This document shows, in pieces, positions 12,958 to 42,028 of a stretch of DNA of 64,000 nucleotides (position 1 is its first letter; the number at the start of each line of letters is the position of its first letter). The DNA lies in the NCBI GenBank assembly GCA_017551725.1, contig JAFZKY010000014.1:2721-66720 (forward strand), given 5' to 3'. A model generated the notes under the pieces. That model ran no database searches and was not told where the DNA came from. It worked only from the letters and a program-made list of their open reading frames with translations. A program made the position numbers and the translations under genes. This DNA is from Bacteroidales bacterium (GTDB lineage: Bacteria > Bacteroidota > Bacteroidia > Bacteroidales > WCHB1-69).

Positions 12958-13031
12958 GCTTCCTTAGCTCAGTTGGTTAGAGCATCTGACTGTTAATCAG
13001 AGGGTCCTAGGTTCAAGTCCTAGAGGGAGCG
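12958..13031 (+). tRNA. tRNA-Asn (anticodon GTT)
   Basis: The cloverleaf was folded by hand. Acceptor GCTTCCT pairs with AGGGAGC, the anticodon loop is CTGTTAA, and the T arm is CTAGG-TTCAAGT-CCTAG. Confidence 0.93.
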
Positions 13032-13042
13032 CAAAGAAAATC

Positions 13043-13081: not shown

Positions 13082-13107
13082 GGTACTAACAAAGGTACTA
13101 ACATTTT
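13082..13107 (+). repeat. Tandem GGTACTAAC-AAA-GGTACTAAC-ATTTT, candidate integrase arm-type site (left arm)
   Basis: An identical 26-mer recurs at 37158-37183 in the same orientation, just inside the other island end. Confidence 0.5.
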
Positions 13108-16219: not shown

Positions 16220-16476
16220 AGCTATGAGTTTGCGTTAATAAATGATATGTTTTGTCACCTTGATAAGTGGTGTCATTATCATATAATAAAAAATTCAAAC
16301 TTTTGTTGAGAAAAAACAGCTGCAACATGTGGACGCAGTACTACTTTCATTTTGTACTACTTTAACTCTAACGTTCTTTTATTTTATACCATATATTTGT
16401 TATATATATAACTCTTTGAATTATTGTATTACATATTGGATTTTTTTGTATCTTTGTGGCTCCAAAAATCAATGAT

Positions 16477-17133: not shown

Positions 17134-17144
17134 TACAGATGTTC

Positions 17145-17519: not shown

Positions 17520-17639
17520 TTATATTTGTATGCTTCCCCAAACAGTAAACACAATTCGGGGATCATTTTTTTCTTTTTTTTATTATATTATAAATAAGGA
17601 GTGGGAACTCCGATGTTTTATTAACCATATTTTTTTTAT

Positions 17640-18659
17640 ATGCATACCTATACACACGTAGATAATTTTTATAGTCCGAGCGGAATATGTACGGGGATTA
17701 AGGCGGAAGGTGTGACCAGAGTCGCGATTGAGCCAGCCAAAGGTTGTTGTGAAGAGATCTTCTCAACAAAGATCAAGGAAGCTAAACCATTTGTCAAGTG
17801 GGCAGGAGGGAAAAGACAATTAATACCAACTATCGACGAATTTGTAGCAGTCGCAAACGGGAAAGTGGCTATTGACACTTACGTGGAACCATTTGTCGGT
17901 GGTGGTGCAGTGTTGTTTTGGATCCTGAGCAATTATGACCAAATAAAGCGAGTTGTCATTAATGATATTAATGTAGATTTAATGACCGCATATCAAGTTG
18001 TTCGTGATGCTCCCGAAGATTTGATAGAGGCATTAGCCAAGCTACAAAGTAAGTATTACTCTATCAAAGTAGATGAAAGAATGGTATTCTTCAACCAAGT
18101 CAGGGACGCGTATAACAAAAAGGAGTTGGACTCTGTTGAAAACACAAGCTATTTCATATTTTTGAACAGAACGTGCTTTAACGGTTTATATCGTGTTAAC
18201 AGAAAAGGATTGTATAATGTTCCATTTGGTAAATATGTGAGCCCAAGAATATGTGATGAAACAAATATATATGCCTGTAGTCGTTTGCTCCAGAAAGTAG
18301 AAATTCTATGTGGTGACTATTCGCAAACGATTGGCTATGCTAACCAGCATAGTTTATATTATTTTGACCCGCCCTACAAGCCCTTGTCTATGACTTCAAA
18401 TTTCACAGCTTATTCTACAACCGCATATAACGATGAAGAACAGATAAGGTTGAGTGCTTTTTGCCAAAAAATAGATGAAGCAGGTAGCCTTTTCCTCCTC
18501 AGTAATTCAGACGTGAGTCAAGTTGATCACGGTAACTGCTTTTTTGACGACTTGTATCGAGACTTTAATATTCATCGGGTGCGAGCCAGGAGAATGATAA
18601 ATTCCGTTGCATCGAAAAGAGGTGATGTTTCAGAATTATTGATATGTAATTTCCACTGA
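17640..18659 (+). CDS. Dam-family (D12 class) N6-adenine DNA methyltransferase, copy 2
   Basis: Motifs KWAGGKRQL, FVGGGAV and DPPYKP are present. A ~48-aa N-terminal extension makes the start uncertain. Confidence 0.85.
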   Translation: MHTYTHVDNFYSPSGICTGIKAEGVTRVAIEPAKGCCEEIFSTKIKEAKPFVKWAGGKRQLIPTIDEFVAVANGKVAIDTYVEPFVGGGAVLFWILSNYDQIKRVVINDINVDLMTAYQVVRDAPEDLIEALAKLQSKYYSIKVDERMVFFNQVRDAYNKKELDSVENTSYFIFLNRTCFNGLYRVNRKGLYNVPFGKYVSPRICDETNIYACSRLLQKVEILCGDYSQTIGYANQHSLYYFDPPYKPLSMTSNFTAYSTTAYNDEEQIRLSAFCQKIDEAGSLFLLSNSDVSQVDHGNCFFDDLYRDFNIHRVRARRMINSVASKRGDVSELLICNFH

Positions 18660-19030: not shown

Positions 19031-19163
19031 TTCGTTATCATGGACGAAGTAGAGCATGTATTATTCGACGAAAAGCTGTCTCTGTATAATAAATATTGGA
19101 CAGCGGACTGTGCCATGTTTTTTCACACCAATTGCTTATCTTTGCCGCAAAAAGGAAATTGTC

Positions 19164-20093
19164 ATGAGCAAGAATTTGATTAACAGGTATATTTGGTTGG
19201 TAGACACCATTTACCAAGCTGGTTCTTCGGGAATTACACTCCGAGAAATTTCAGAAAAATGGGAAAGCAACTGGCGAATGTCTGGAAAGGAGGAGTATGC
19301 AAGACGCACCTTCATGCATCACAAAAAGGACATTTGGGACATCTTCGGCATTGAAATAGGATGTCACAAGCACACCAATTGCTACTATATTGTGGATAGC
19401 AGGGATATTTCCGACTCGTCGGGTTTTCGGCGGTGGATGTTCGAAACGTTAGCAGTGAATAACCACGTTAATGAGAGTGCCCAATTGCGCGACCGTATCT
19501 TATTGGAGAACAACCCCTCTGGAGGTGAGTTCCTTTCCACCATCTTGGAAGCGATGCGCGACGGAAAGATGATCACATTTGACTATCGTCCGTTTTGGTT
19601 TGAGGCCGAAAACTATTCCAGCTACTACCATGTGGAGCCTTATGCTCTGAAGGTGTTCAAACGCCGCTGGTATCTGTTGGGCAAATACGGCGACTCACCT
19701 TTGAAGATATATGCACTAGACCGCTTTCTGAATATCGACATCGAATTCGAGGACTTCACAATGCCGCAAGGCTTCAATGCAAATGCCTACTTCTCCACCT
19801 GTTTTGGAATCATCGTTGGTGATGAAGATCCGCAATTCATCAAACTAAAAGTGGCTTACTATCAGGCAAACTATCTCCGTTCATTGCCGCTTCACCACTC
19901 CCAGAAAGAGATGGAGATTACCGATAACCATACCATCTTCAGCTATTATTTGCGTCCATCTTTTGACTTTGTGCAGGAGTTGCTTTCCATGGGCGACTCC
20001 GTTGAAGTGCTTGAACCCACTTCCTTGCGCTCGAAGATGGAGCGAATCGGGAAGGAGATTGCGAAGAATCATAAAAGGGAGCGACGGAAATAA
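19164..20093 (+). CDS. WYL-domain transcriptional regulator with N-terminal HTH
   Basis: FKRRWYLLGK is the WYL signature, and an N-terminal wHTH-like segment is present. A TAtcTTTG box lies just upstream at 19137-19144. Confidence 0.7.
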   Translation: MSKNLINRYIWLVDTIYQAGSSGITLREISEKWESNWRMSGKEEYARRTFMHHKKDIWDIFGIEIGCHKHTNCYYIVDSRDISDSSGFRRWMFETLAVNNHVNESAQLRDRILLENNPSGGEFLSTILEAMRDGKMITFDYRPFWFEAENYSSYYHVEPYALKVFKRRWYLLGKYGDSPLKIYALDRFLNIDIEFEDFTMPQGFNANAYFSTCFGIIVGDEDPQFIKLKVAYYQANYLRSLPLHHSQKEMEITDNHTIFSYYLRPSFDFVQELLSMGDSVEVLEPTSLRSKMERIGKEIAKNHKRERRK

Positions 20094-20116
20094 CATCAGT
20101 TGCAAAAGGAATCCTT

Positions 20117-20632
20117 TTACACTATCGGATCTGGACACACATTGCGCCGTTGGCACTTTTCGCACTCGCTGCCACGCCACACTTTATCGAATTCCTCGAT
20201 GACAGCGGTTACGAGAGCGTGATCATCGGTGAGGACACCTGCTTCGAAATTGCGGCGGAGGGCGGATTTCATCCCCATGCCAGCACCCGTGAGGTTCGCA
20301 CTACCAACATAGCAAACGGATTGGTCAATCACGATGATTTTGAAATGAACCCTCGGACACATTACTCTTTCCAGTAATTTTGCTAGTCGCGGGTAACGAT
20401 CAAAGTCAGCGCGGAAGTTCGGACCAGGTTCCTTTGCATGGATGAGTCGCACCTCCACACCCCTGCTGATTAGTTCAGCTAATACCCCAAGAAATGGTTT
20501 TTCAGACTTACCTTGCAACACGTATAGGTCTTTGATGTCAGCGGTACCAATCCACAATGAGTGCCTAGACTTCATCACGAGATTAAGCACAGTGGTATAG
20601 TGAGAGAAGTCTGTAATAAGGGATGTGGACAT
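20117..20632 (-). CDS. Phospholipase D-family nuclease (Nuc-like, single HKD)
   Basis: Perfect HxKx4Dx6GSxN motif: HFKIIVIDQSVCYVGSAN. Confidence 0.8.
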   Translation of the reverse strand: MSTSLITDFSHYTTVLNLVMKSRHSLWIGTADIKDLYVLQGKSEKPFLGVLAELISRGVEVRLIHAKEPGPNFRADFDRYPRLAKLLERVMCPRVHFKIIVIDQSVCYVGSANLTGAGMGMKSALRRNFEAGVLTDDHALVTAVIEEFDKVWRGSECEKCQRRNVCPDPIV

Positions 20633-20643
20633 TATATTGTTTT

Positions 20644-22596
20644 TTACTCTTTGCTTGACTCTTCCTCTATAAAATATTTGTCTGAAACAAAAAGCAATTT
20701 CTTTTTCTGCTCCTCGGAGAAGCTCAACCCATCAACCATATTTGCCATAAAATCCAACATTTTACAGCCTCTTTTCCAAATGGATTTCTTATCCCAGTTT
20801 TGTTCTTTAGAAATCTCCTGTTCGCTAAATGAGCCTGTTTCATATCTCCCTTGTTTCTTATTCCAAGAGTCGTTTTGTAAAGCGGAGTTTTTGGCATCTT
20901 TTAGTATCGTCAGATTTCCGAGGGTGTTAATGATTATTTTCTGTGCCCTGTTTCTCTCGTCTTCTGTTAAGACTTTTTCTCCTAAATAGTTTTCCATTTC
21001 TTTTTCCCAATTTGCTTCATAGCTTTGTGGCATGATATGTTCGATGTTTATTTCGTTGAAATTGTCCCAGCTCACATGTTCAAAATCTCCTTTTTGTTCT
21101 TTCAAATAGCATTCGTATTCCATCAAAAAGAACTTTAGACCGCCCCACCTATGGAAACCTTTATTACCACGTAAATACTCAAATAAATAATCAAATTGTC
21201 CAATCATAGCATCAACATTGCATGGCATTTCAAGTTTGGTCTGGAAATCCAAACATAATTCAGACAATGCTATTTCGTGTTGATGCAATTCTCTTGCACG
21301 ACTCGCATATGTCCTCTCATCGAGAACATTAAGTCCTAGAATACTGTTCCTGAATCCGATTTTCAAAAGCAAATCAATGCAGGAATCCGCTAATGAAACT
21401 TCTTCACTGGAAGCTTTAAACATAAGCAACTCAGCCAATAAAAGGCGCATTTCTTTTGAGGAATTCTGCAAAAGGAGTTTCTTTATTCTAACGTCATCAC
21501 TATTTACAACCTCATACCAATAAGGTACGAATGCGGCAATGTCCAATACATAGTTTTCGATTTTCTCATAGTCAACTTTTGTTTCATGAGCTGGATTATC
21601 CCCTTGACTTCTTGAATAGTCAAGCAAATAATTTGTCGAACGATTACAAAACATTTCAAAGACTTTTTTTTCTGCCACTTGTTCGGAAAAAACATAGTCT
21701 GTGGGTTTTCGTATTAGGGTGAGATGAGCGGAAAGAAATTCGTCTTCATCCAACATGTTGTTGGGATTCTTTCCTAAACAATCATAAATGATACGCCAAG
21801 CATCATTGATTTTTTTTGAAAGTAGCAAGATGTCAACATGATCATTAGGCAATTTTGCCGCCAAAAACAACAGTCTGTTCTTTAATTTTTCAAGAATTGT
21901 CAAAGGTTTTCCTCTGTTGTTCATGGTTTCAAACACAGCTTGAACTGAAAGGTTATCTGTAATATACTTCGTATCAAAAGCCAATGCGGTTTGCAGTCTT
22001 ATGAGCAAATCTTTTTTTTCTCCATCTGACAAAGCATTTATTTTGTCCTTGAACCAATTTTTCGCCAGCAGGAGATTGTTTGTATATACATTGACATGAT
22101 CATTAGGTAAAATTTCAGACACGTCTTCAAATATCTTATTCAGAAGGAATTGTCTATTCTTATCCTCTTTCTTGTATGAGAACAGGCAGAGTTTTGTTTC
22201 AGCACTTTCCTTCTTTCGATATATGTATCTTTTCATCAAAGCACTCCGTTCTTCAGTAATGGGATAAACCTTAATCAGTTCATGTAAAAGAATGACGATA
22301 GTTGTGAGTCTTTGTTGACCATCAACGACATCAAAAAACCTATCACCTTCATCTACAAACCATAATTCCTCTTGAGGAACACTATTTCGATTAATTTCCT
22401 GTAATGCGATAGTACCTGTATAGTGGCGACGGTATTCTTCAGTAACGTTATCAACTTCAATATCCCAAATGTCCTCCCACAGGTCGTTCCATTGACGCTC
22501 TCCCCAAGCGTATCCTCGTTGATAATTGGGGATTCTGAAAGCCTTGCTTCCAAACAACTCATTGAGTCTTAAATCTGATTCGTTTGTTCTTGCCAT
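20644..22596 (-). CDS. DUF262/DUF1524 protein, GmrSD-like type IV restriction enzyme
   Basis: The N-terminus has NYQRGYAW and DGQQRLTT (DUF262). The C-terminus has IEHIMPQS...LGNLTIL (His-Me finger, DUF1524). Confidence 0.85.
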   Translation of the reverse strand: MARTNESDLRLNELFGSKAFRIPNYQRGYAWGERQWNDLWEDIWDIEVDNVTEEYRRHYTGTIALQEINRNSVPQEELWFVDEGDRFFDVVDGQQRLTTIVILLHELIKVYPITEERSALMKRYIYRKKESAETKLCLFSYKKEDKNRQFLLNKIFEDVSEILPNDHVNVYTNNLLLAKNWFKDKINALSDGEKKDLLIRLQTALAFDTKYITDNLSVQAVFETMNNRGKPLTILEKLKNRLLFLAAKLPNDHVDILLLSKKINDAWRIIYDCLGKNPNNMLDEDEFLSAHLTLIRKPTDYVFSEQVAEKKVFEMFCNRSTNYLLDYSRSQGDNPAHETKVDYEKIENYVLDIAAFVPYWYEVVNSDDVRIKKLLLQNSSKEMRLLLAELLMFKASSEEVSLADSCIDLLLKIGFRNSILGLNVLDERTYASRARELHQHEIALSELCLDFQTKLEMPCNVDAMIGQFDYLFEYLRGNKGFHRWGGLKFFLMEYECYLKEQKGDFEHVSWDNFNEINIEHIMPQSYEANWEKEMENYLGEKVLTEDERNRAQKIIINTLGNLTILKDAKNSALQNDSWNKKQGRYETGSFSEQEISKEQNWDKKSIWKRGCKMLDFMANMVDGLSFSEEQKKKLLFVSDKYFIEEESSKE

Positions 22597-27610: not shown

Positions 27611-27711
27611 TTTCTTTGATGTTTAAATACGCTGGCAAAAATAGAACATCGCTGTGCCATATTTTGGCATATAGGCGTTATATTTTTGCAGCGTTCAAAA
27701 ATTGTAAGGAT

Positions 27712-29442
27712 ATGAAAAAAGAAAACATTTTGCAGACATTGAGTTTTCTTGCATTAAAAATGGAAAACTCTGAGACTATCTTATTAGAAGCCGTGGCACC
27801 CAATTCTATTGCTCATTTAGATCATGCATTGACACGGCAGAACGACTCAGCCATTCATAAAGAGTTTAGCAAAACAGAGATATGTGAGATTGTTAAAAAG
27901 TTGGAGGATGTCGCCAAATTCCTCGGTATCTCAACCATTCAGGCTGTTATTATGATGGTTGCCTTCTGCAATAAATTCCAAGACAATTATATAGATTGGA
28001 ACGATGTCCACAAATTTTTCAATGTAAAGAGTATGGTGCTGCTTCCTTTGAAAAAAGAATTTGACCGTCTGGTATCTGGTAAATTCCTAAAACGAGCTGG
28101 GAAAAGACATTCTGAATATTATGATATTGAGCAAAAAGTAGTGGACTCCGTAATGAATGAACATCCATTTGACCCTTGTATATTGAAAGAAGCACGTCTT
28201 GATCGATATAAATTTGTCAACGAAATTTCCGATTTGATCGAGCTACGTAGTGATGACGAGATATCCACCTCCGATCTTTTTGAACGTTCATATGAGATGG
28301 AACAACAGAACAATACTCTTACTTTTGTTCAGAATGTCAAGAAATTGAATCTTGAGACTAAAGACAGAGTCTTATTCTATGAGATTTGCGACGATTTTCT
28401 TGCTCATGGTGAAACGGGAATCAATTGTACGCTGAAGGACATGTATAGTAATCCTAGCACTCGTTTTCGAATTGCAAAGGAGTTGATGGACGAAAAGCAG
28501 ATTCTGCAAAAGTTAGATTTAGTGATCCTCCTTCGTGACACAATATTCTCTGATAGTAATTTGACCCTGACCGAAAAAGGGAAACAACTCTTTTTAGAGG
28601 AAGATTTCGAGCTTTTTGCCAAATCCAAAAATCGAGACCAGAAAACAATATACCCCGAAGACATTCAAGAAAAGTCCTTGTTTTATGATGAAGAACTCTC
28701 GCGACAGCTAAATCTGCTGAAAGAAAATCTCCAAGAAGAGCGTTTCTCAGAGCTGCAAAAACGATTGGAAGAACAGTCGCTACCTAAGGGGGTTGCTGCC
28801 ATCTTCCATGGGCAACCTGGCACAGGGAAAACCGAAACTGCGATGCAAATTGCCAAAGCTACAGGTCGTGCAGTGTGTCACGTGGACATAGCAAGTTCCA
28901 AAAGTTGCTGGTTTGGTGAAAGCGAAAAACTTATTAAGCGTATATTTACCGATTATGCTGGACTGTGCAAAAAATCCCCTCTTAAGCCGATTCTACTTTT
29001 CAACGAAGCAGACGCTCTCTTTTCCAAACGCAAGGATAGCATTTCATCAAACGTGGCGCAAACAGAGAATGCCATCCAAAACATTATCCTTGAAGAAATG
29101 GAAAAACAGGATGGAATACTCATAGCTACCACCAATCTCATAGATAACTTGGACAGAGCTTTTGAACGACGTTTTCTATTCAAAATCCGTTTCAACAATC
29201 CCACGGTGGAAGCAAAACAGTCTATCTGGAAGAGCAAACTCTCTTGGTTGTCTGAAAACGAAAGTCGCATACTCGCAGAACGCTACAATTTCTCAGGCGG
29301 CGAAATCGACAACATCGTCCGCAAGGTTATTATGGATGAGGTACTCAACGGAATACACCCTGACATGCAATTCGTTGAAGAACTATGCCGCTATGAAAAG
29401 ATTGGCAACAAGGAGACGAACTTCATTGGGTTTAGAAAATGA
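27712..29442 (+). CDS. Classic-clade AAA+ ATPase with a long uncharacterised N-terminal region
   Basis: Walker A is GQPGTGKTETA, Walker B is ILLFNEADALF, and sensor/Arg-finger region ATTN...RAFERRF is present. The ATG at 27712 follows a TAttTTTG box. Confidence 0.85.
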   Translation: MKKENILQTLSFLALKMENSETILLEAVAPNSIAHLDHALTRQNDSAIHKEFSKTEICEIVKKLEDVAKFLGISTIQAVIMMVAFCNKFQDNYIDWNDVHKFFNVKSMVLLPLKKEFDRLVSGKFLKRAGKRHSEYYDIEQKVVDSVMNEHPFDPCILKEARLDRYKFVNEISDLIELRSDDEISTSDLFERSYEMEQQNNTLTFVQNVKKLNLETKDRVLFYEICDDFLAHGETGINCTLKDMYSNPSTRFRIAKELMDEKQILQKLDLVILLRDTIFSDSNLTLTEKGKQLFLEEDFELFAKSKNRDQKTIYPEDIQEKSLFYDEELSRQLNLLKENLQEERFSELQKRLEEQSLPKGVAAIFHGQPGTGKTETAMQIAKATGRAVCHVDIASSKSCWFGESEKLIKRIFTDYAGLCKKSPLKPILLFNEADALFSKRKDSISSNVAQTENAIQNIILEEMEKQDGILIATTNLIDNLDRAFERRFLFKIRFNNPTVEAKQSIWKSKLSWLSENESRILAERYNFSGGEIDNIVRKVIMDEVLNGIHPDMQFVEELCRYEKIGNKETNFIGFRK

Positions 29443-29519
29443 GTGTCTAATAATTCGCATAGGTCGCACCATTTTCTATCTAATATGTGCGCTGTTTTAC
29501 CATATTAAAACATGCCGTT

Positions 29520-30149
29520 ATGTTAAAATTTTTACGGGAAACACTTTCTATCGGGGACTTTGTGGAGGTGGAAACTTCCACAGGATTAGTGCGTGGCTCC
29601 ATCTTGGAAATACCACCTGATTGTTTGGTGATGCTAACTGATGGCGAACTACACGAATATTCAGAGGAGCAGTTGTTGAGTATCAAATACTTTTCCGATG
29701 ATCACGATGCCTATCGGGATTGTTATATCCAAAAGTTTATACCAGAAGAAAAGAGTGAGAGATATTTTTGGGCAGAAAACCACAATGGATCGTTGTGTTG
29801 CACGAATTTCGACAACATCATCACAATTTTTATGGGCTGGAATATGCGTTTCCAACGCGGTCATCTTGACTTGCCCGACTTGATTGATGTGGAGGACGAA
29901 TACTATTATATAGAAGTCTTGAGCAATGATTGTGATGATTGTTTTTCGGACTATATCACTTCCGTCAAGTTACCGAAACATTTGAAGAGTATTGAGCCAC
30001 TATTCATAGGAAGAATCTTCCTCCAGAAAATATATGTTCCCTATACTTTAGTTTATTCGGGAGGGTACAAAATAGGCGGTTGCACCACATGTCAAGTTTT
30101 CGACTTGAATGGAAAACTTTTGGATTGGGAGTTTGAAGAGGATTGGTGA
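29520..30149 (+). CDS. Hypothetical protein (Cys-rich)
   Basis: 209-aa ORF with no motif recognised. The start is uncertain (GTG 29487 or ATG 29520). Confidence 0.55.
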   Translation: MLKFLRETLSIGDFVEVETSTGLVRGSILEIPPDCLVMLTDGELHEYSEEQLLSIKYFSDDHDAYRDCYIQKFIPEEKSERYFWAENHNGSLCCTNFDNIITIFMGWNMRFQRGHLDLPDLIDVEDEYYYIEVLSNDCDDCFSDYITSVKLPKHLKSIEPLFIGRIFLQKIYVPYTLVYSGGYKIGGCTTCQVFDLNGKLLDWEFEEDW

Positions 30150-30213
30150 ACAGTGCCGCACTTTTGCACACTTCCGATATATTTTTGCCGCAGGTTCCAT
30201 CCCATACGCCCTC

Positions 30214-30273
30214 GCCGAAAAGCGTTCAATAGAGTAGGCATTTTTAAAAGTTGTGCCCGACACGTACTAGGGA
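30214..30273 (+). promoter_or_regulatory. Conserved ~60-nt leader: GCCGAAAAGCGTTCAATAGAGTAGGCA...AGTTGTGCCCGACACGTACTAGGGA
   Basis: A near-identical block is at 31656-31719. The distal 25-mer is also at 26946-26969 on the minus strand. Confidence 0.5.
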
Positions 30274-30275
30274 GA

Positions 30276-30515
30276 ATGATTATGCCGCAAATGATAGTCT
30301 ATAATGGGGAACTGATACGTATTAGCCCCAAAAACAAGAGAAAAATAGAGGTGTCTACCAATCATGGTGGATCATGGATGACCCGCTGTGTTGGATCTGC
30401 CAGCACTGGAGAATTCCTTGATTTGGTAAACAATGGCTCTGAGATAATTGCCACCACCGAAAACGGGCTGTTCGTCTCCTCCAACAACGGAGGATCTTGG
30501 ATAAGAAGATGTTAA
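30276..30515 (+). CDS. Small protein with two Asp-box/BNR-like SxNxGGSW motifs
   Basis: 79-aa ORF carrying STNHGGSW and SSNNGGSW. Confidence 0.5.
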   Translation: MIMPQMIVYNGELIRISPKNKRKIEVSTNHGGSWMTRCVGSASTGEFLDLVNNGSEIIATTENGLFVSSNNGGSWIRRC

Positions 30516-30540
30516 CAATTATCCCTAAAAATATACCACT

Positions 30541-30819
30541 ATGAGAAATTTAAAAAACAACATGCTGGCACTGATACTTGTGATTTGCAATTTTGCTGTC
30601 TATGCAGAAACTGCTTCAGAAGCTGCCAACCCTTCAGAATCCAACATTTTCATTGAGATCTTGGTTTACGCTTTGATTTTCGGAATTCCATTGTTGGTGA
30701 TTATCCGAAAAATTAGGCGAAAAATCAGGAACTTCAAGGAGGATGTAAAAAGTGGCGGTTTCGGAGAAGCAACCATGAGCCGTTTGGAAGACCATTTCGA
30801 CAGAAAGAACAAGAAATAG
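30541..30819 (+). CDS. Small membrane protein (signal peptide plus one TM, basic cytoplasmic tail)
   Basis: 92 aa. An N-terminal hydrophobic leader ends in YAE, a second TM (ILVYALIFGIPLLVII) follows, then RKIRRKIR. Confidence 0.55.
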   Translation: MRNLKNNMLALILVICNFAVYAETASEAANPSESNIFIEILVYALIFGIPLLVIIRKIRRKIRNFKEDVKSGGFGEATMSRLEDHFDRKNKK

Positions 30820-30839
30820 CAGACTAAACGCTTCTCGTC

Positions 30840-31679
30840 ATGAATCTTAAATTCTTTTTCAGTTCCATTGTTTCGAACCGCTATTTTGAGTGGGCGATAA
30901 CGATTGTTATTCTCGTGAACGCCGTACTTATCGGTATCGAACTAAATGTTTGTGATCCCACCATCGGACTGATACAGAGGATTATTTTGCTGATTTTTAC
31001 CGTGGAAATCCTGATGCGATTCATGGCGAGAGAAAATGTGAGGGAGTTTTTCTCTAACGGTTGGAACATCTTCGACCTCACTCTTGTGTTGATTGGTTAT
31101 ATTCCAGAGGATCTCTTTGCCAATGCTTCCGCCATGATGGCTATTAGGGTGCTCCGTGTATTGCGCGTACTTCGATTGCTCAGGGCTGGAAAAGAAATCA
31201 AACTTATTACTACTGTGCTTACCAAATCGATGGTGTCTATGGTGTGGTACGTCATCCTGTTTGCGATTTTCATTTACCTGTTTGCTATAATAGGGGTAAG
31301 CATGTTCAAGTTGCCCGACCCCGAAAAGCTAACGCTAGAAGACCGCTCAAGATACGAACAGTTTATGCGTGAAGTTCACAACGCCCCCGACAACTCTCCT
31401 GACCCGTTCGGGTCGCTGTCGGAAGCAATGTTTACTCTATTCCGCGAGCTAACAGGCGAGGATTGGACAGACCTGCGTTACAACACTATCTCCGCCTACG
31501 AGTACGGCGTTATCCGTGTGAATCCTGTGGTCATCACCACCTACCACATAGTTTGGTTTTCGCTGTCAGTCTTCCTGTTGCTGAACTTAGTTACAGGATC
31601 AATCATCAACAACTATCAAAACATAAAGGAAGAGCAAAATAATCAAAACGCCCCAGCCGAAAAGCGTTCAATAGAGTAG
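30840..31679 (+). CDS. Voltage-gated cation channel, single-domain 6TM BacNav/NaChBac family, Cav-like selectivity filter
   Basis: S4 is RVLRVLRVLRLLR (Arg every third residue). The pore loop is FTLFRELTGEDWTD. At 279 aa, the length matches NaChBac-type channels. Confidence 0.85.
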   Translation: MNLKFFFSSIVSNRYFEWAITIVILVNAVLIGIELNVCDPTIGLIQRIILLIFTVEILMRFMARENVREFFSNGWNIFDLTLVLIGYIPEDLFANASAMMAIRVLRVLRVLRLLRAGKEIKLITTVLTKSMVSMVWYVILFAIFIYLFAIIGVSMFKLPDPEKLTLEDRSRYEQFMREVHNAPDNSPDPFGSLSEAMFTLFRELTGEDWTDLRYNTISAYEYGVIRVNPVVITTYHIVWFSLSVFLLLNLVTGSIINNYQNIKEEQNNQNAPAEKRSIE

Positions 31680-31719
31680 GCAAAAAATTCTAGCAGTTGC
31701 GCCCGACACGTAATAGGGA
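31656..31719 (+). promoter_or_regulatory. Conserved ~60-nt leader, second full copy (overlaps the last 8 codons of the channel gene)
   Basis: GCCGAAAAGCGTTCAATAGAGTAGGCA...AGTTGCGCCCGACACGTAATAGGGA. The ATG follows at 31727. Confidence 0.5.
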
Positions 31720-31726
31720 AACGAAA

Positions 31727-31948
31727 ATGAGTAAGGTTTATAGAATCACACCGAAAGCTATTCACAGAACAAACAACACCGTTTTGACTCCTGAGATGGA
31801 AATCATCGTGACTTTAGAGCGTCATACATCCGACCCATTCTACAATGGTGCAAAAGAAATCAAAGCCATGTATATGGACAGATATGGCTTTGATTATGAG
31901 CGGGCGAATGCAACAAAAGCTTGGTTTGATTATGAGAGATTAGACTAA
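31727..31948 (+). CDS. Small conserved hypothetical protein (possibly DUF6140-like)
   Basis: 73-aa ORF. The family assignment is from memory of similar small Bacteroidales proteins and is unverified. Confidence 0.5.
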   Translation: MSKVYRITPKAIHRTNNTVLTPEMEIIVTLERHTSDPFYNGAKEIKAMYMDRYGFDYERANATKAWFDYERLD

Positions 31949-31967
31949 CAATTTGATAAATACAACA

Positions 31968-31997
31968 TGACGGGCAGGATTTTTCTCCTGCCCGTCA
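31968..31997 (+). terminator. Strong hairpin terminator closing the plus-strand block
   Basis: TGACGGGCAGGA-TTTTTC-TCCTGCCCGTCA, a 12-bp perfect stem. Confidence 0.7.
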
Positions 31998-32092
31998 TAT
32001 TGAAAAACCTTTACTTGGTATACTTTTCTATAACATTTACACCAACGGAACCATATACAAATCTTGTTGATTATCAATGATTCACATGCATA

Positions 32093-32136
32093 GTTCTCTT
32101 AAAGTTCTCTTAAAGTTCTCTTAAAGTTCTCTTGAA
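32093..32136. repeat. 11-bp tandem repeat GTTCTCTTAAA x4 (last unit degenerate)
   Basis: Read directly. An inverted copy TTTAAGAGAA lies at 32147-32156, next to the stop of the 32157-33845 gene. Confidence 0.85.
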
Positions 32137-32156
32137 ATGCTCATACTTTAAGAGAA

Positions 32157-33845
32157 TTATTTTAGCCTCCATAACTTCTTCTCGCCAAAAACTATTTTGT
32201 CTGCTTTTCGTAGTGACGTTAGCAAGTTCCCAATCTTGGAAACCTTCTGTTTGTCAGTCAAAGCTTCAGGTAATTTCGTCATCAACAGCGTATCTATTTC
32301 TGGACGACTCATTGTCACATGTTGATCCAAAGCTTTCAGGATAAGATCCTTGTAGTAATTATCATCGAATCCTTTGTTACGAGTATATTCTGCTTTTTGG
32401 CCTGTAGCTTTAGCCACACTCTTGGCAAAATACAATGCATTCTTTCGGCCTTCAATCAGTTTACGTTTTCTCAAGTAAGCAATTTCATCGTCACTTAGTG
32501 GGCGATGGGTTTGTAACCTGCTCAACATTTCTATGTCAAGCAAAGTCAGTGTTTTGTCTCTGGTCAAGAGCATAGCATAGTCAATGTCCACCACTTTGCC
32601 GATAATCGTCACTTTAACCCTGTCATCACTAAACTCATAATCAGGCATGGGGAAAAGGCGTTCACGTTGCTTGTTAAACATCCGTCTGATACCGCTGCCA
32701 ATCGTGTCCACCATGCCCAATTCCACCATTGCTGTTGCCAGAAACCTGTTACGATAATGTTCCTCAGGGGCATCGTTTATCAACACATTCTTAATGCTGT
32801 TGGGAATGAAAGTCCCCAAATTGGTAAAGATCAGTCGGTCTTCTTCCTCTATTACGTTGATCATGCCATAACGTCCATAGTCCTGATGAGCTATGGCATT
32901 ATTTAATGCTTCCCGAATGATAAAAGGGTCGTATGTATCCAGTTCATCTGGCACTAGCGAAAGAAGCTCTGGATTCATATATCTGTACTTCCAGTTACGT
33001 ATTTTCCTGTAAACCGTATTAGCTGCAATGACAAACGGACATGTTTCGATGGAAAAATCTTTCTCTTCACCTTTGGAATCCTTGTATATCCACCTAATAC
33101 GTGCAACAGCTGGCGAAATAAGATGTTCGCTCTCGGTGCGTCCCAACAATAATATTGCGGTATTGGTTATCTGGCCTTGTTTGGTGATCTTTGCTTTGTT
33201 CAGAAACTTCACATCATCCCACGATTTCATCTCCGCCATCAAGTCCTCGTGTTTCTTGGCATACATCTTGCGAGCTTCTTTGATAGCATCGGGATCAAGA
33301 TCGTCGAATGTGGCATCTTTTACAATCTCGGCACTCCAGTCTTTCTGTGAATTGTATATCTGGCGAACAAAGTCTGGGAAATCTTTGAGCTTCGTCAGAT
33401 TGCTTCCAACCCTCACATAAGCAGCTCCCTTGAAATTTACAGGTTCTCCTGCCGCAGCCTGTATCTCGAAAATAACAATGTGTTTGCCTTCGTACTCAAA
33501 CTCCTCAATTTCAAAGGGGATAATGGGCGAACAGTTTTTTCTAAGCCATAGTTCATAATCCTGATTGCCATATTTAGCTGTCGGCATTTTCAGATTGGTT
33601 CCAACCACATTCCATGTTCCATCCTCCACTCCTAAAATCAAATAACCATGTGGCCTGTATTTCAGGCAGGCCGAATTAGAAAGACCTGAGATATAGTTCC
33701 CCACTCCCTCATACGTAACACTGCATCGAGACTCGCCGATATTAGTTTTAAACTCCATCCACTCCGTTTCTCCAGCACTTTGGCGTTGGCGAGCCTGTGC
33801 CAATAGATCCTCCAACAATATATGTTGTTCTTCAATTGTTTTCAT
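32157..33845 (-). CDS. AlbA_2 (Schlafen-like) DNA-binding domain protein with HATPase_c_4-like and C-terminal wHTH regions (often mislabelled RecG-like)
   Basis: The N-terminus has EWMEFKTN...GYLILGVEDG, typical of AlbA_2. The central region has NAIAHQDY...GSGIRRM. Confidence 0.7.
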   Translation of the reverse strand: MKTIEEQHILLEDLLAQARQRQSAGETEWMEFKTNIGESRCSVTYEGVGNYISGLSNSACLKYRPHGYLILGVEDGTWNVVGTNLKMPTAKYGNQDYELWLRKNCSPIIPFEIEEFEYEGKHIVIFEIQAAAGEPVNFKGAAYVRVGSNLTKLKDFPDFVRQIYNSQKDWSAEIVKDATFDDLDPDAIKEARKMYAKKHEDLMAEMKSWDDVKFLNKAKITKQGQITNTAILLLGRTESEHLISPAVARIRWIYKDSKGEEKDFSIETCPFVIAANTVYRKIRNWKYRYMNPELLSLVPDELDTYDPFIIREALNNAIAHQDYGRYGMINVIEEEDRLIFTNLGTFIPNSIKNVLINDAPEEHYRNRFLATAMVELGMVDTIGSGIRRMFNKQRERLFPMPDYEFSDDRVKVTIIGKVVDIDYAMLLTRDKTLTLLDIEMLSRLQTHRPLSDDEIAYLRKRKLIEGRKNALYFAKSVAKATGQKAEYTRNKGFDDNYYKDLILKALDQHVTMSRPEIDTLLMTKLPEALTDKQKVSKIGNLLTSLRKADKIVFGEKKLWRLK

Positions 33846-35744: not shown

Positions 35745-37001
35745 CTATATCACCTCCTTCAGCAGCTGTTCCTTCAGTTCCTTACATTGGATCATTGAAA
35801 TTGTTCTCAACGAATTAATATAACCCTGTGTGGTTGTCACATTGGCATGTCCCATGTCGCTCTGAATATCCGCCATGTTTCTACCATTCTCCAGCGACCA
35901 AGTGGCAAAGGTATGCCTCGCCTGAGCCATTGTGATGAATGGAAGACCAAGATCCTCGGCAACAATGTGAAGACCAATATTAGCCCTATCGTTTATGTCA
36001 TGCACTCGGTCGTTTATTTGCTTTTCCGTTTTTGCATTACTCAAGAATGGAAAGATGTAGTCGTTTGGGTGAGATGGATTTATAGAACCATATTTTTTTA
36101 TGAGTTCCATTGTCGCATCCAAAAAGAATATTGATACTGTGATTGAACGTCGTCTGGTTTTATGTCGGATGAACTGAACCATCCAATTATTTTCCACTTT
36201 GCTAATATTTTTATTTTTAAGTCGCAATAAATCACTTAGATAGTGTCCATTTAACAAAAATGATAAAGCGAACATGTCTCGACCAAACTCTGCCTTAGGG
36301 TCAGAACTTTTATATGCAAGTATTTGTTTCAAGCTTTCGCATGACAGACCATAATTAACCTTTCTCGTAGACGTGAGCGAATATTTTTTGAATGGTTTTT
36401 TATCATCAACATAACCCCTGTCCACAGCAAAATTGCAGACTGCTCTAATACACCTGAAATGAGCATTGATCGTGTTTTGCGAAATGTCAGGTTGATGTTT
36501 GCGCATAAACATATCCAGCTTGGGGATCATCTCTTCTGTTATTTCTTCTATTGTTAGTTTTTCTTTGTATTTTGTCAACCAGTTTAAGGCGGTTTTGTAT
36601 GCTCCCTTCGTCCTGTCGGATATTGGTCGAGGGTTAGTCGTATCAGACATGTATTCAGCAAAAACGCTTCGTACATCGTATACACTGCTGATCTTTTTGT
36701 GGACAATCCTTTTGTAGTCTTGTGTGAAGGACGGGAAATTGAAATTTTCGCCAAGCTTTTTGATAATATCTATGGCAGCATTATAAGCGGGGAGCACTTC
36801 CTCGTATGCTGTTTTATACATTTTCAAGTTCTTGTTGTTGAATTCCTGCACGGTCAATTTAGTTCTGCCTCCAGCTGTATAATACCTCGTGTTCCTATCA
36901 TGGGTAACTCTCAACACCAGTATCCTTCTGTCGGGATTGCGGTCAGCATCCCTACGGGGAGACTTGGGGTTGCGGATAATATTTACACTCGGTTTATTCA
37001 T
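35745..37001 (-). CDS. Tyrosine-type site-specific integrase (Bacteroidetes Arm-DNA-binding N-terminus)
   Basis: The catalytic region has RHTFATW...MGHANVTTTQGY. It lies next to the island end. Confidence 0.9.
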   Translation of the reverse strand: MNKPSVNIIRNPKSPRRDADRNPDRRILVLRVTHDRNTRYYTAGGRTKLTVQEFNNKNLKMYKTAYEEVLPAYNAAIDIIKKLGENFNFPSFTQDYKRIVHKKISSVYDVRSVFAEYMSDTTNPRPISDRTKGAYKTALNWLTKYKEKLTIEEITEEMIPKLDMFMRKHQPDISQNTINAHFRCIRAVCNFAVDRGYVDDKKPFKKYSLTSTRKVNYGLSCESLKQILAYKSSDPKAEFGRDMFALSFLLNGHYLSDLLRLKNKNISKVENNWMVQFIRHKTRRRSITVSIFFLDATMELIKKYGSINPSHPNDYIFPFLSNAKTEKQINDRVHDINDRANIGLHIVAEDLGLPFITMAQARHTFATWSLENGRNMADIQSDMGHANVTTTQGYINSLRTISMIQCKELKEQLLKEVI

Positions 37002-37157: not shown

Positions 37158-37183
37158 GGTACTAACAAAGGTACTAACATTTT
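37158..37183 (+). repeat. Tandem GGTACTAAC-AAA-GGTACTAAC-ATTTT, candidate integrase arm-type site (right arm)
   Basis: Identical to 13082-13107. Confidence 0.5.
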
Positions 37184-37289: not shown

Positions 37290-37337
37290 AATCTGACTGT
37301 TAATCAGAGGGTCCAAGGTTCAAGTCCTTGAGGGAGC
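37290..37337 (+). repeat. attR: displaced 3' half of tRNA-Asn (anticodon arm through acceptor end)
   Basis: Matches 12984-13031 except for a compensatory T-stem pair (CAAGG/CCTTG against CTAGG/CCTAG). Confidence 0.85.
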
Positions 37338-37346
37338 GCAAACAGA

Positions 37347-41020: not shown

Positions 41021-42028
41021 TTAGAATTTGTTGCCGGCAGCCTGGCAGGCCGTGATGGCCACGAGGCTGACGATGTCGTCCACGGAGCAACCGCGGGAAA
41101 GGTCGTTGATGGGGGCGGCCATGCCCTGCATCACCGGTCCGATGGCATCGGCGCCAGCCATACGCTGCACCAGCTTGTAGGCAATGTTGCCCACCTCGAG
41201 CGACGGGAACACCAGCACGTTGGCCTTGCCAGCGACGGGGCTGCCTGGAGCCTTCTTGGCGGCCACCTCGGGGATGATGGCGGCATCAGCCTGCAAATCA
41301 CCATCGATCATCAGGTTGGGATCCATCTCCTTGGCAATGCGGGTAGCGTTGACCACCTTATCCACGAGCTCGTGTTTGGCAGAGCCTTTGGTGGAGAAGC
41401 TCAGCATGGCCACGCGCGGCTCAATGCCGGCGATGGTGCGGGCCGTCTGGGCGGTCACCACTGCGATCTGGGCCAGCTTATTCTCGTCCGTGTTCGGGTC
41501 GGCGGCACAGTCGGCGAACACCATGATGCCGTCATCGCCCCACTTCTTGTCGGGGAAGCACATGATGAACGCGCCAGAAACCACGGAAATACCCGGCAGG
41601 GTCTTCACAATCTGGAAGGCAGGACGAAGCACATCGCCCGTGGCGTGCTGCGCACCCGTGACCTCACCGTCGGCGTCGCCGTTCTTGATGAGCAGCGTGC
41701 CCAGATAGAGAGGATCCTCCACCAGCGTGCGGGCCTCCTCGATGGTCATGCCTTTTTTCTTGCGGATTTCGCAAAGCATCTCGGCATAATATTCCTTTTT
41801 GGGGTTGTCCATGGGGTCGATAATCTCGGCCTTGCCGATGTTCTTCAAGCCCCATTCGGCAGCCTGGGCCTCGATTTTGGCCTTGTTGCCCAATAAAATG
41901 ATGCCGGCATATCCTTTGTCCAGGATGATGTCAGCGGCTTTCAATGTTCTCTCCTCTTCGCCTTCGGCCAGCACAATGCGCTTGTTGGCACTGATGGCGT
42001 TTTGTTTGATTTTGTCGATTAAATTCAT
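41021..42028 (-). CDS. pta: Phosphate acetyltransferase
   Basis: 335-aa short-form Pta. Conserved blocks include SFSTKGSAKH and INDLSRGC. Confidence 0.9.
   Translation of the reverse strand: MNLIDKIKQNAISANKRIVLAEGEEERTLKAADIILDKGYAGIILLGNKAKIEAQAAEWGLKNIGKAEIIDPMDNPKKEYYAEMLCEIRKKKGMTIEEARTLVEDPLYLGTLLIKNGDADGEVTGAQHATGDVLRPAFQIVKTLPGISVVSGAFIMCFPDKKWGDDGIMVFADCAADPNTDENKLAQIAVVTAQTARTIAGIEPRVAMLSFSTKGSAKHELVDKVVNATRIAKEMDPNLMIDGDLQADAAIIPEVAAKKAPGSPVAGKANVLVFPSLEVGNIAYKLVQRMAGADAIGPVMQGMAAPINDLSRGCSVDDIVSLVAITACQAAGNKF

What the first reader, a model, noticed from the sequence alone, without database searches (positions are those of the whole stretch)
30840..31679. Mobile-element-borne BacNav homolog whose pore reads TGEDWTD, matching Ca2+-selective filters
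The S4 segment (RVLRVLRVLRLLR) and overall size match NaChBac or NavAb. The filter is LTGEDWTD rather than TLESWS(M/A). As I recall, eukaryotic Cav domain II reads TGEDW. The engineered Ca2+-selective CavAb carries TLDDWSD, with acidic residues at the same three positions that are E, D and D here. This predicts a naturally Ca2+-selective homotetrameric channel, which is rare in prokaryotes, and it is carried on a defence-type island. It also has an unusually long S5-P turret (KLPDPEKLTLEDRSRYEQFMREVHNAPDNSPDP).
Basis: partly seen in the sequence, partly recalled or inferred. Interest (0 to 1): 0.65.

Follow-up and report, generated by a model that had tools for sequence, protein, structure and literature searches.

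The report
Gut-bacterial voltage-gated channel, calcium-type pore
This is an intact gene for a one-domain voltage-gated cation channel from a large, unstudied family in gut bacteria; its pore looks like a calcium-channel filter, but whether it conducts calcium or is blocked by it cannot be read from the sequence.

Summary
ORF 30840-31679(+) encodes a 279-aa Ion_trans protein (E 1.4e-44) with a complete voltage sensor, the filter T205-G-E-D-W-T-D211 and a turret 26 residues longer than in BacNavs. It lies in a 24-kb island integrated at tRNA-Asn. The island has 52-nt att repeats and a tyrosine integrase, and is full of defence-type genes.

The Ca2+-selectivity claim is only partly supported. 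The three acidic residues do align with CavAb positions 3, 4 and 7, and TGEDW is the Cav1/Cav2 domain II motif. But the nearest characterised native filter, NavPp TLEDWTD, gives PCa/PNa 0.31 with Ca2+ block. Glycine at position 2 (NavAb L176G) also produces Ca2+ block. The same filter gives PCa/PNa 13.8 in the CavMr backbone.

The protein belongs to a monophyletic, uncharacterised "TG[E/D]DW" clade, about 30% identical to all known BacNav/AnclNav groups. It occurs in at least 214 species genomes of gut Bacteroidales and Akkermansia. Natural variants include TGDDWSD (CavAb-like) and TGEGWTD.

Only the subclade at 74% identity or more sits in defence islands. There it always follows a signal-peptide/SH3/TM partner gene. 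More distant homologs are chromosomal.

Verdict: a new variant of a known kind and a good electrophysiology target. Its selectivity is undetermined.

The parts
30840..31679 (+). Channel gene: 279-aa one-domain voltage-gated cation channel (S1-S6)
   Evidence: ORF. Pfam Ion_trans E 1.4e-44. AF2 model pLDDT 80 with helices S1 14-36, S2 40-63, S3 67-86, S4 96-116, S4-S5/S5 118-156, turret helix 166-178, P1 193-205, P2 209-221, S6 229-270. Top Foldseek hits are NavAb, CatSper and NaChBac.
31146..31184 (+). S4 gating charges R103, R106, R109, R112, R115
   Evidence: They align with NavAb R99/R102/R105/R108. The countercharges N27, E34, F53, E56, R60 and D79 align with NavAb N25, E32, F56, E59, R63 and D80. 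All are invariant in 42 family members.
31308..31406 (+). Long S5-P1 turret K157-P189 (KLPDP...NSPDP)
   Evidence: A 26-residue insertion relative to all BacNav/AnclNav references. It contains a predicted helix at 166-178. P159, E173, P183, N185, S186, D188 and P189 are invariant.
31452..31472 (+). Selectivity filter T205-G206-E207-D208-W209-T210-D211
   Evidence: Residue-by-residue alignment to NavAb 175-181, NavPp 182-188 and CavMr 183-189. It lies between the predicted P1 and P2 helices. TGEDWTD occurs in 118/120 close homologs.
30541..30819 (+). Upstream partner gene: 92-aa signal-peptide / single-TM / basic-tail protein, 20 bp before the channel
   Evidence: Homologs lie 5-20 bp upstream of the channel in every locus of the >=74% identity clade. 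In other loci they carry an extracellular SH3_3 domain and 1 or 4 TM helices. No Pfam, PADLOC or PHROG hit for the window copy.
30282..30515 (+). Small ORF (77 aa from M44 of the 120-aa ORF) with two S-x-N-x-G-G-S-W repeats
   Evidence: ORF. Called as a 77-aa gene in L002. 69% identical copy in L019. No family hit.
31697..31948 (+). DUF6140 small protein directly downstream of the channel
   Evidence: PF19637 on the identical gene in L001. An 86% identical copy sits elsewhere in the P0010 island. DUF6140 is also present in L102/L103.
30180..30187 (+). Bacteroidetes-type -7 promoter motif TATTTTTG (candidate start of the small-ORF/partner/channel/DUF6140 unit)
   Evidence: Pattern match. The motif is enriched in the window: 70 matches against 44 expected. 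Its function here is inferred only.
31963..32002 (.). 17-bp-stem GC-rich hairpin between the convergent DUF6140 and Schlafen genes
   Evidence: Terminator-like scan.
12958..13035 (+). tRNA-Asn(GTT); its 3' 52 nt (12984-13035) form attL of the island
   Evidence: ARAGORN; repeat search.
37291..37342 (+). attR: partial tRNA-Asn copy, 50 of 52 nt identical to 12984-13035
13082..13107 (+). 26-bp repeat GGTACTAACAAAGGTACTAACATTTT, second copy at 37158-37183; candidate integrase arm sites
   Evidence: Exact repeat just inside both island ends. The arm-site role is inferred.
35745..37001 (-). Tyrosine integrase of the island
   Evidence: Phage_integrase and Phage_int_SAM_5, both E 1.7e-14.
27616..29442 (+). 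AAA+ ATPase (IetA-like) at the head of the same-strand gene run
   Evidence: Pfam AAA 4.9e-23. PADLOC IetA 7.3e-24. Conserved at 96% with the channel block in L018.
19056..22596 (.). WYL regulator, PLD nuclease and GmrSD type IV restriction enzyme (island core that recurs with the channel cassette)
   Evidence: The same families lie within 10 kb of the channel in the P0010, P0002, P0008 and P0007 loci.

Best explanation
The gene encodes a functional one-domain (6-TM) voltage-gated cation channel that assembles as a homotetramer and opens on depolarisation. It belongs to a distinct, uncharacterised clade of prokaryotic channels defined by the filter T-G-[E/D]-D-W-[T/S]-D. The tetramer would place twelve carboxylates in the outer pore: rings of E207, D208 and D211. 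Gly206 would open a small cavity just below the filter. Such a pore is a high-affinity divalent-cation site, so at millimolar external Ca2+ the current is governed by Ca2+. My leaning is that the channel is Ca2+-permeable and Ca2+-preferring (PCa/PNa above about 5; probability about 0.45). I expect it to pass Na+ when Ca2+ is low, and I do not expect CavMr/CavAb-grade selectivity (probability about 0.25). In this window the gene is one half of a two-gene cassette, preceded by a signal-peptide/TM partner. The cassette rides as cargo on a 24-kb island integrated into tRNA-Asn.

Shown: gene identity, sensor and filter residues, clade membership, cassette and island structure. Inferred: tetramer assembly, gating polarity and ion preference.
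For: Identity and sensor:
- Full-length Ion_trans match.
- All NavAb sensor residues are conserved: N27, E34, F53, E56, R60, D79 and R103-R112, plus R115. They are invariant across 42 homologs.
- The AF2 model has the S1-S6/P1/P2 topology, and its best structural matches are NavAb, CatSper and NaChBac.

Filter:
- E207 lies on the high-field-strength Glu. D208 and D211 lie on the positions mutated to Asp in CavAb.
- TLEDWSD in NavAb and TLEDWAD in NaChBac are Ca2+-selective, and TLEDWTD in the CavMr backbone gives PCa/PNa 13.8.
- A published survey concludes that Asp at HFS+1 gives either Ca2+ selectivity or a Ca2+-blocked Na+ conductance.
- Cav1/Cav2 domain II reads TGEDW.

Clade:
- Monophyletic in 99/100 NJ bootstraps, with 28-33% identity to AnclNavs and 24-33% to canonical BacNavs.
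- The filter is invariant in 118/120 close homologs. Elsewhere it varies only among TGDDWTD, TGDDWSD, TGDAWTD and TGEGWTD, that is, at the positions known to tune Ca2+/Na+ selectivity.

Island. Cassette.
Against: - The nearest native filter, NavPp TLEDWTD, has PCa/PNa 0.308 with Ca2+ block. Converting it to TLEDWSD or TLEDWAD does not relieve the block.
- In CavMr, Asp at position 4 lowers Ca2+ selectivity, and Gly there is the determinant.
- Gly at position 2 in NavAb (L176G) produces Ca2+ block with little Ca2+ permeation.
- The invariant basic residues R202 and R213, and K/R157, flank the filter and could neutralise part of the charge (sequence observation; structural role untested).
- The protein lacks the C-terminal coiled coil of BacNavs: only 24 residues follow the gate Ile255. 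Assembly or gating may therefore need the partner protein.
- No electrophysiology exists for any member of the clade. Literature searches gave no hit for TGEDWTD and nothing relevant for BacNav + Bacteroides.
Confidence: 0.5

Rival explanations
1. It is a NavPp-like channel. It is Na+-selective or weakly selective, and its Na+ current is blocked by millimolar extracellular Ca2+. It would serve Na+ entry in a Na+-cycling anaerobe rather than Ca2+ signalling.
For: The filter differs from NavPp (TLEDWTD, PCa/PNa 0.308, Ca2+ block) only by L2G. L2G in NavAb adds Ca2+ block without Ca2+ permeability. The P1 motif LFR..T.EDWTD is shared with the Asp-4 AnclNavs. Most family members sit in housekeeping contexts such as pta-ackA and his genes, as expected for an ion-homeostasis gene.
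Against: The same filter is Ca2+-preferring in the CavMr backbone, and close variants (TLEDWSD, TLEDWAD) are Ca2+-selective in NavAb and NaChBac. The clade is not nested with NavPp and is only about 32% identical to it. Gly at position 2 also occurs in the Ca2+-selective Cav1/Cav2 domain II.
Confidence: 0.35
2. In the island-borne subclade the partner+channel cassette is itself an anti-phage module. Phage-induced membrane depolarisation opens the channel. The resulting cation influx collapses the membrane potential (abortive infection or exclusion), so it would act like RexB but with a built-in voltage sensor.
For: Every examined locus of the >=74% identity clade lies within 10 kb of a GmrSD-family gene, together with varying sets of WYL, PLD, McrBC, KAP NTPase, Fic, RNase_T and an integrase (none of which is in every locus). 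These loci are the window/L001-L004, L018, L019, and those of P0010, P0002, P0008 and P0007. The cassette stays constant while the neighbours change. None of the other 78 GTDB loci (<=71% identity) has homologs of the window's island genes within 6 kb. Membrane-depolarising effectors are common in defence systems (established knowledge).
Against: PADLOC has no match for the channel, the partner or the small ORFs. The contexts share a GmrSD/WYL core, with PLD in most but not all, so they may descend from a single capture event and would not be independent associations. The rest of the family is chromosomal and housekeeping. No family member occurs on viral contigs, and nothing in the papers searched links this channel family to defence.
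Confidence: 0.12
3. It is a passenger gene with no present function in this host: a decaying or silent cargo copy. This is suggested by its truncated partner gene (92 aa, no SH3 domain) and the fragmented ORFs upstream.
For: The partner here lacks the SH3_3 domain present in L019, L098, L101 and L104. The 220-aa and 120-aa ORFs upstream have no family hits, and gene calls differ between near-identical contigs.
Against: The channel ORF is intact, and every invariant family residue is present. The identical protein occurs on 9 contigs from several samples, and a 98% identical copy is in a separate MAG. The short partner form is also conserved in the P0010 lineage at 65% identity.
Confidence: 0.05

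Closest known systems
NavPp (Plesiocystis pacifica), an ancestor-like BacNav (AnclNav; Shimomura et al. 2020, PMC7041947)
   Same: Single 6-TM subunit. Filter identical at six of seven positions (TLEDWTD against TGEDWTD), with the same three acidic residues. Shares the LFR..T.EDWTD P1/filter context and the P2 Tyr.
   Different: Gly instead of Leu at position 2. 26-residue longer S5-P1 turret. No Cys-containing P2-S6 extension. No long C-terminal tail. About 32% identity, and the clade is separate in 99/100 bootstraps.
CavMr (Meiothermus ruber), the only native prokaryotic Cav described in that paper
   Same: One-domain channel with Glu at position 3 and Asp at position 7. About 31% identity.
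   Different: CavMr has Gly at position 4, its Ca2+ determinant. Here position 4 is Asp, and CavMr-G4D drops to PCa/PNa 7.7. One family member, P0011, does carry TGEGWTD.
CavAb (engineered NavAb, TLDDWSD) and the NavAb TLEDWSD / NaChBac TLEDWAD mutants
   Same: Acidic residues at filter positions 3, 4 and 7. Akkermansia homologs read TGDDWSD, which is CavAb with L2G.
   Different: The filter here is native, not engineered. The backbone differs (27% identity to NavAb). Position 2 is Gly. The turret is long and there is no C-terminal coiled coil.
NavAb L176G (PDB 8HA1/8HA2; Irie et al. 2023, PMC10349818)
   Same: Gly at filter position 2, giving a cavity beneath the filter.
   Different: That mutant keeps the Na+-type ESWSM residues and shows Ca2+ block. 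Here Gly2 is combined with Asp at positions 4 and 7.
Domain II of eukaryotic Cav1/Cav2 alpha-1 subunits
   Same: The LTGEDW motif and the P2 pattern W-x-x-x-x-Y-x-x-I-x-A-Y. The pore region aligns through to S6 in the PDB sequence search.
   Different: This protein has one domain, not four. Overall, the best-scoring eukaryotic repeat is DIII (65/116), not DII (27/116). Identity to eukaryotic repeats is 21-28%.

Membership tests
Voltage-gated ion channel superfamily (Pfam Ion_trans, PF00520) | Profile match above the curated cutoff over S1-S6 | tested here: met
   152.5 bits against a cutoff of 25, residues 13-266 on profile positions 1-240 of 241.
Voltage-gated ion channel superfamily (Pfam Ion_trans, PF00520) | S4 with Arg at every third position, plus the charge-transfer centre (S2 Phe/Glu, S3 Asp) | tested here: met
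   R103/106/109/112/115, F53, E56 and D79 align with NavAb R99-R108, F56, E59 and D80.
Canonical BacNav (NaChBac / NavAb type) | Filter T-L-E-S-W-[SA]-[MS] | tested here: not met
   The filter is TGEDWTD, which differs at positions 2, 4, 6 and 7.
Canonical BacNav (NaChBac / NavAb type) | Short S5-P1 turret | tested here: not met
   26-residue insertion relative to all references.
Canonical BacNav (NaChBac / NavAb type) | C-terminal neck and four-helix coiled coil | tested here: not met
   Only 24 residues follow the gate Ile255, against 50 in NavAb. The tail has pLDDT below 50.
Canonical BacNav (NaChBac / NavAb type) | Na+ selectivity | not testable with these tools
   Needs electrophysiology.
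AnclNav (ancestor-like BacNav, Shimomura 2020) | Filter T-[LF]-E-[DG]-W-x-[DE] | tested here: inconclusive
   Positions 1 and 3-7 fit (EDWTD). Position 2 is Gly, which none of the 14 AnclNav-group sequences aligned from that paper's dataset has.
AnclNav (ancestor-like BacNav, Shimomura 2020) | Groups phylogenetically with CavMr/NavPp | tested here: not met
   The TG clade is its own group in 99/100 NJ bootstraps and never sits inside the CavMr/NavPp cluster. This is NJ only; no ML tree was run.
Native prokaryotic Cav (CavMr type) | Gly at filter position 4 | tested here: not met
   Position 4 is D208.
Native prokaryotic Cav (CavMr type) | High PCa/PNa | not testable with these tools
   Needs electrophysiology.
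CavAb-type Ca2+ filter | Acidic side chains at filter positions 3, 4 and 7 | tested here: met
   E207, D208 and D211 align with NavAb E177, S178 and M181, the CavAb D/D/D positions.
CavAb-type Ca2+ filter | These side chains line the pore in the tetramer | not testable with these tools
   Only a monomer model could be made. The residues lie between P1 and P2 as in NavAb.
tRNA-integrated genomic island | tRNA gene at one end, direct repeat of its 3' part at the other end, and a tyrosine integrase inside | tested here: met
   tRNA-Asn at 12958-13032. 52-nt repeat at 12984-13035 and 37291-37342 (2 mismatches). Integrase at 35745-37001. An empty site was sought but not found.
Known anti-phage defence systems (PADLOC-DB 2.0) | Profile match of the channel or its cassette partners | tested here: not met
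   No hit for the channel, the partner, the small ORFs or DUF6140. Only the neighbouring AAA (IetA-like), KAP (PifA / PDC-S20-like) and Schlafen genes match.

The most novel reading that the evidence does not exclude
The island-borne partner+channel cassette is a previously unrecognised anti-phage module in which a voltage-gated channel acts as both sensor and effector. Depolarisation caused by phage genome injection opens it, and the resulting Ca2+/Na+ influx collapses the membrane potential or triggers the neighbouring nucleases. A second novel reading is also not excluded: the TG[E/D]DW clade may be the closest prokaryotic relative of the eukaryotic four-domain Cav/Nav channels. The split {TG clade + eukaryotic repeats} appears in 58/100 NJ bootstraps, and in a further 29/100 together with the Halomonas/Teredinibacter group.
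Probability: 0.12. Interest if true: 0.9.

Novelty: new variant of a known kind. Interest (0 to 1): 0.55.

Why it matters
CavMr is the only native prokaryotic Ca2+ channel described in the paper read here. How homotetrameric filters choose Ca2+ over Na+ is still argued: the Gly-4 mechanism, the Asp 'beacon' idea, and Ca2+ block linked to position 2.

This clade offers a natural test set. TGEDWTD, TGDDWTD, TGDDWSD, TGDAWTD and TGEGWTD all occur on one backbone. They vary exactly at the residues that engineered studies found decisive, and they combine these with a Cav-domain-II-like Gly at position 2.

The clade is also common in major gut commensals such as Prevotella, Muribaculaceae, Alistipes, Bacteroides and Akkermansia, where no voltage-gated channel physiology turned up in the literature searched here.

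If the island-borne subclade turned out to act in phage defence, it would be the first voltage-gated channel in that role that I know of.

Tried and rejected
- E. coli genome megablast of 29000-33000: no match. The host is a Bacteroidales bacterium from horse gut; the closest record is MAG Horse_feces121 at 98%.
- Ranking of PDB hits by whole-sequence E-value puts eukaryotic Cav3/Cav1 first, but this is an artefact of summing four repeats. Per repeat the scores are 36-59 bits, against 88 bits for NavRh and 79 for NaChBac over the sensor+S5 alone. I therefore rejected 'closer to eukaryotic Cav than to BacNav' on that basis.
- Special kinship with Cav domain II: rejected. DIII is the best-scoring repeat in 65/116 four-domain proteins.
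- A conserved partner across the whole family: rejected. The SH3/TM partner is confined to the >=74% identity clade. Other recurrent neighbours (a ~530-aa protein in 18 loci, a 148-aa multi-TM protein in 12 loci) belong to other subclades.
- Phage carriage: no relative in IMG/VR viral contigs. Only a weak PHROG hit to the sensor half.
- Empty att site: two exact-pattern scans of JGI metagenome contigs found nothing.
- Literature: no paper contains TGEDWTD. The BacNav + Bacteroides search, and searches combining defence terms with PF00520, 'ion channel' or 'voltage-gated', gave nothing relevant.
- The Biopython BLOSUM bootstrap timed out. I replaced it with a Kimura-distance NJ bootstrap.
- A tetramer model was not attempted. 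The tool predicts single chains only and returns no coordinates.
Full report
**What is there.**
The ORF at 30840-31679(+) is real and intact (279 aa). It matches Pfam Ion_trans over its whole length (152.5 bits, E 1.4e-44). No NCBIfam model reaches its cutoff.

An alignment-based AlphaFold2 model (mean pLDDT 80) gives the expected topology. S1 to S4 form the sensor, and a long S4-S5/S5 helix follows. There is an extra helix in the turret (166-178), then P1 (193-205), P2 (209-221) and S6 (229-270). Foldseek against the PDB returns NavAb, a CatSper subunit, NaChBac and NavMs as best matches.

Residue-level alignment shows every hallmark of a working voltage sensor. R103/R106/R109/R112 fall on NavAb R99-R108, with a fifth Arg at 115. 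F53/E56/R60 fall on F56/E59/R63. D79 falls on D80, and N27/E34 on N25/E32. All of these are invariant in 42 homologs.

**The filter.**
T205-G206-E207-D208-W209-T210-D211 aligns column for column with NavAb 175-TLESWSM-181, NavPp 182-TLEDWTD-188 and CavMr 183-TLEGWVD-189.

The recollection that Cav domain II reads TGEDW is also correct. The eLife source data contain 'fqiltgedwnsvmy' and 'fqvltgedwtsmmy'. The turret is 26 residues longer than in any reference BacNav or AnclNav, and it carries invariant prolines and an NSPDP motif. Unlike BacNavs, the protein ends 24 residues after the gate isoleucine, so it has no C-terminal coiled coil.

**What the filter predicts.**
Published experiments cut both ways.

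For Ca2+ preference:
- TLEDWSD in NavAb and TLEDWAD in NaChBac are Ca2+-selective.
- TLEDWTD transplanted into CavMr gives PCa/PNa 13.8.

Against:
- The native channel with that filter, NavPp, has PCa/PNa 0.308 and is blocked by Ca2+.
- Its T6S and T6A versions stay blocked.
- In CavMr it is Gly at position 4 that confers selectivity, and G4D lowers PCa/PNa to 7.7.

The single residue that separates this filter from NavPp is Gly at position 2, and it has been tested. NavAb L176G (PDB 8HA1/8HA2, which also appear among the Foldseek hits) opens a cavity under the filter where hydrated Ca2+ lodges. Na+ current is about halved at 40 mM Ca2+, and for the calcium-blocking Leu176 mutants examined in detail the reversal potential indicated low Ca2+ permeability.

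A survey of 'beacon' (HFS+1) residues reaches the same dichotomy. Asp at that position gives either a Ca2+-selective channel or a Na+ conductance blocked by millimolar Ca2+. I conclude that the pore is a strong divalent-cation site but that its conduction phenotype cannot be read from sequence. My estimates are:
- about 0.45 for Ca2+-preferring;
- about 0.35 for NavPp-like;
- about 0.25 for CavMr-grade selectivity (a subset of the Ca2+-preferring estimate).

**Family.**
The word-indexed search found 1607 homologs. The top 120 are 57-94% identical and, where named, are 'ion transporter' of Bacteroidales MAGs. Of these, 118 carry TGEDWTD.

The exhaustive search at 50% clustering found 320 cluster representatives at E<=1e-30 (many of the listed ones are four-domain eukaryotic channels). 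Among them is a wider set of one-domain proteins, 37-54% identical, with TG[E/D]DWT[D/Q] filters and shorter turrets. One is a Ruminobacter protein with TGDDWSN.

In GTDB species genomes, 214 stretches encode a relative. These come from Prevotella, Muribaculaceae, Paludibacteraceae, Alistipes, Barnesiella, Dysgonomonas and Bacteroides, and at 54-61% identity from many Akkermansia/Verrucomicrobiales MAGs.

Filter census of the 80 loci kept:

| Filter | Loci | Notes |
|---|---|---|
| TGEDWTD | 59 | |
| TGDDWTD | 11 | |
| TGDDWSD | 7 | all Akkermansia/Akkermansiaceae; equals CavAb with L2G |
| TGDAWTD | 2 | |

One cluster, P0011, has TGEGWTD.

In NJ bootstraps the clade is monophyletic (99/100). 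It is 28-33% identical to AnclNavs, 24-33% to canonical BacNavs and 21-28% to eukaryotic repeats. The split joining it to the eukaryotic repeats appears in 58/100 replicates. This is a lead, not a result, because only a distance method was used and both branches are long.

The high rank of eukaryotic Cavs in the PDB sequence search comes from summing four repeats. DIII, not DII, is usually the best repeat. None of the 14 AnclNav-group sequences I aligned from the Shimomura dataset has Gly at position 2. No paper in the library contains TGEDWTD.

**Genomic setting.**
tRNA-Asn lies at 12958-13032. Its last 52 nt recur at 37291-37342 with two mismatches. A 26-bp repeat (GGTACTAACAAAGGTACTAACATTTT) sits just inside both ends. 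A tyrosine integrase lies at 35745-37001(-). The enclosed 24 kb has about 40% GC, against 45-57% outside.

The island encodes:
- two D12 methyltransferases and a serine resolvase;
- a WYL regulator, a PLD nuclease and GmrSD;
- an RNase_T exonuclease;
- a KAP NTPase (PifA / PDC-S20-like) and an IetA-like AAA ATPase;
- a Schlafen/AlbA_2 protein and RmuC.

'Mobile-element-borne, defence-type island' is therefore confirmed, although an empty site could not be found.

The channel lies in a same-strand run: AAA, 220-aa ORF, 77-aa ORF, 92-aa TM protein, channel, DUF6140. The gaps are 3-47 bp. A Bacteroidetes -7 motif lies at 30180 and a 17-bp-stem hairpin at 31963-32002.

**A cassette, and a subclade tied to islands.**
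In every locus examined for proteins at least 74% identical, the channel is preceded at 5-20 bp by a partner gene. The partner has a signal peptide, then an SH3_3 domain (lost in the window and in the P0010 lineage), then one or four TM helices and a basic tail. These loci are the window and L001-L004, L018, L019, and those of P0010, P0002, P0008 and P0007.

A GmrSD-family gene lies within 10 kb in every one of these loci. It comes with varying combinations of WYL, PLD, McrBC, KAP, Fic, RNase_T, DUF6140 and an integrase, none of which is in every locus. P0012 (73% identical) sits among AAA_14/DUF4143 genes.

By contrast, homologs at 71% identity or less lie after pta-ackA, next to his genes or leuS, or beside other membrane proteins. 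None of those 78 GTDB loci has a homolog of the window's island genes within 6 kb.

The cassette has no PADLOC match, and no relative is on viral contigs. Because the islands share a GmrSD/WYL core, with PLD in most, the associations may trace to one capture event. I therefore rate a direct defence role at about 0.12, while noting that it is the most novel reading left open.

**Verdict.**
Identity, filter alignment and island are right. Ca2+ selectivity is plausible but contradicted by the closest native precedent.
- The protein is not a member of the canonical BacNav group: filter, turret and C-terminal domain all fail. It is not a CavMr-type channel either, because it has no Gly at position 4. 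It represents a distinct, widespread and uncharacterised variant of the one-domain voltage-gated cation channels.

Noticed in passing
L068, L072, L074, L081, L084, L091, L095 (Akkermansia loci); L094, L096; protein P0011: Natural filter variants occur on the same backbone. TGDDWSD in Akkermansia is the engineered CavAb filter with L2G. TGDDWTD occurs in 11 loci and TGDAWTD in two Bacteroidaceae. TGEGWTD (Gly at the CavMr determinant position) occurs in cluster P0011.
   Followed up: partly
window 30840-31679 compared with eukaryotic four-domain channels (P0126, P0130, P0141, P0144, P0145, P0148): In NJ bootstraps the TG clade joins the eukaryotic repeat branch in 58/100 replicates, and in a further 29/100 together with the Halomonas/Teredinibacter AnclNavs. 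It may be the prokaryotic group nearest the eukaryotic Cav/Nav, or this may be long-branch attraction.
   Followed up: partly
window 30541-30819; L019 5494-5985; L098 2290-3051; L101 8249-8995; L104 8494-8985: A variable partner gene sits immediately upstream of the channel. It has a signal peptide, an optional SH3_3 domain, 1 or 4 TM helices and a basic cytoplasmic tail. It could be an auxiliary subunit.
   Followed up: partly
window 12984-13035 and 37291-37342; 13082-13107 and 37158-37183: The island att repeats are the 3' 52 nt of tRNA-Asn. Their two mismatches lie in the T-arm region (T/A at one site, A/T at the other). A tandem-motif 26-bp repeat lies just inside each end and is probably an integrase arm site.
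   Followed up: partly
window 14165-18659: A serine resolvase/invertase (16456-17133) lies between two D12-class adenine methyltransferases (14165-15031, 17640-18659), with an endonuclease fragment at 17145-17519. This could be a switchable or mosaic restriction-modification region.
   Followed up: no
window 30282-30515: A small 77-aa ORF carries two S-x-N-x-G-G-S-W repeats (BNR/Asp-box-like). It is conserved in L018 (98%) and L019 (69%) but matches no family.
   Followed up: no
L015-L017 (Muribaculaceae) and window 41021-42028: In Muribaculaceae the homolog sits directly after pta-ackA. In the window the pta gene lies about 4 kb beyond attR. This may be coincidence or a trace of an ancestral location.
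   Followed up: no
L012, L020, L021, L040 and 14 other loci: Another subclade of the family has recurrent neighbours: a ~530-aa protein (MGLFGLGSKK...) in 18 loci and a 148-aa multi-TM protein directly upstream in 12 loci. Neither was annotated.
   Followed up: no
window 27616-29442: A 608-aa AAA+ ATPase has its best PADLOC match to IetA (E 7e-24), but no IetS-like protease is nearby. It is conserved at 96% together with the channel block in MAG Horse_feces121 (L018).
   Followed up: partly
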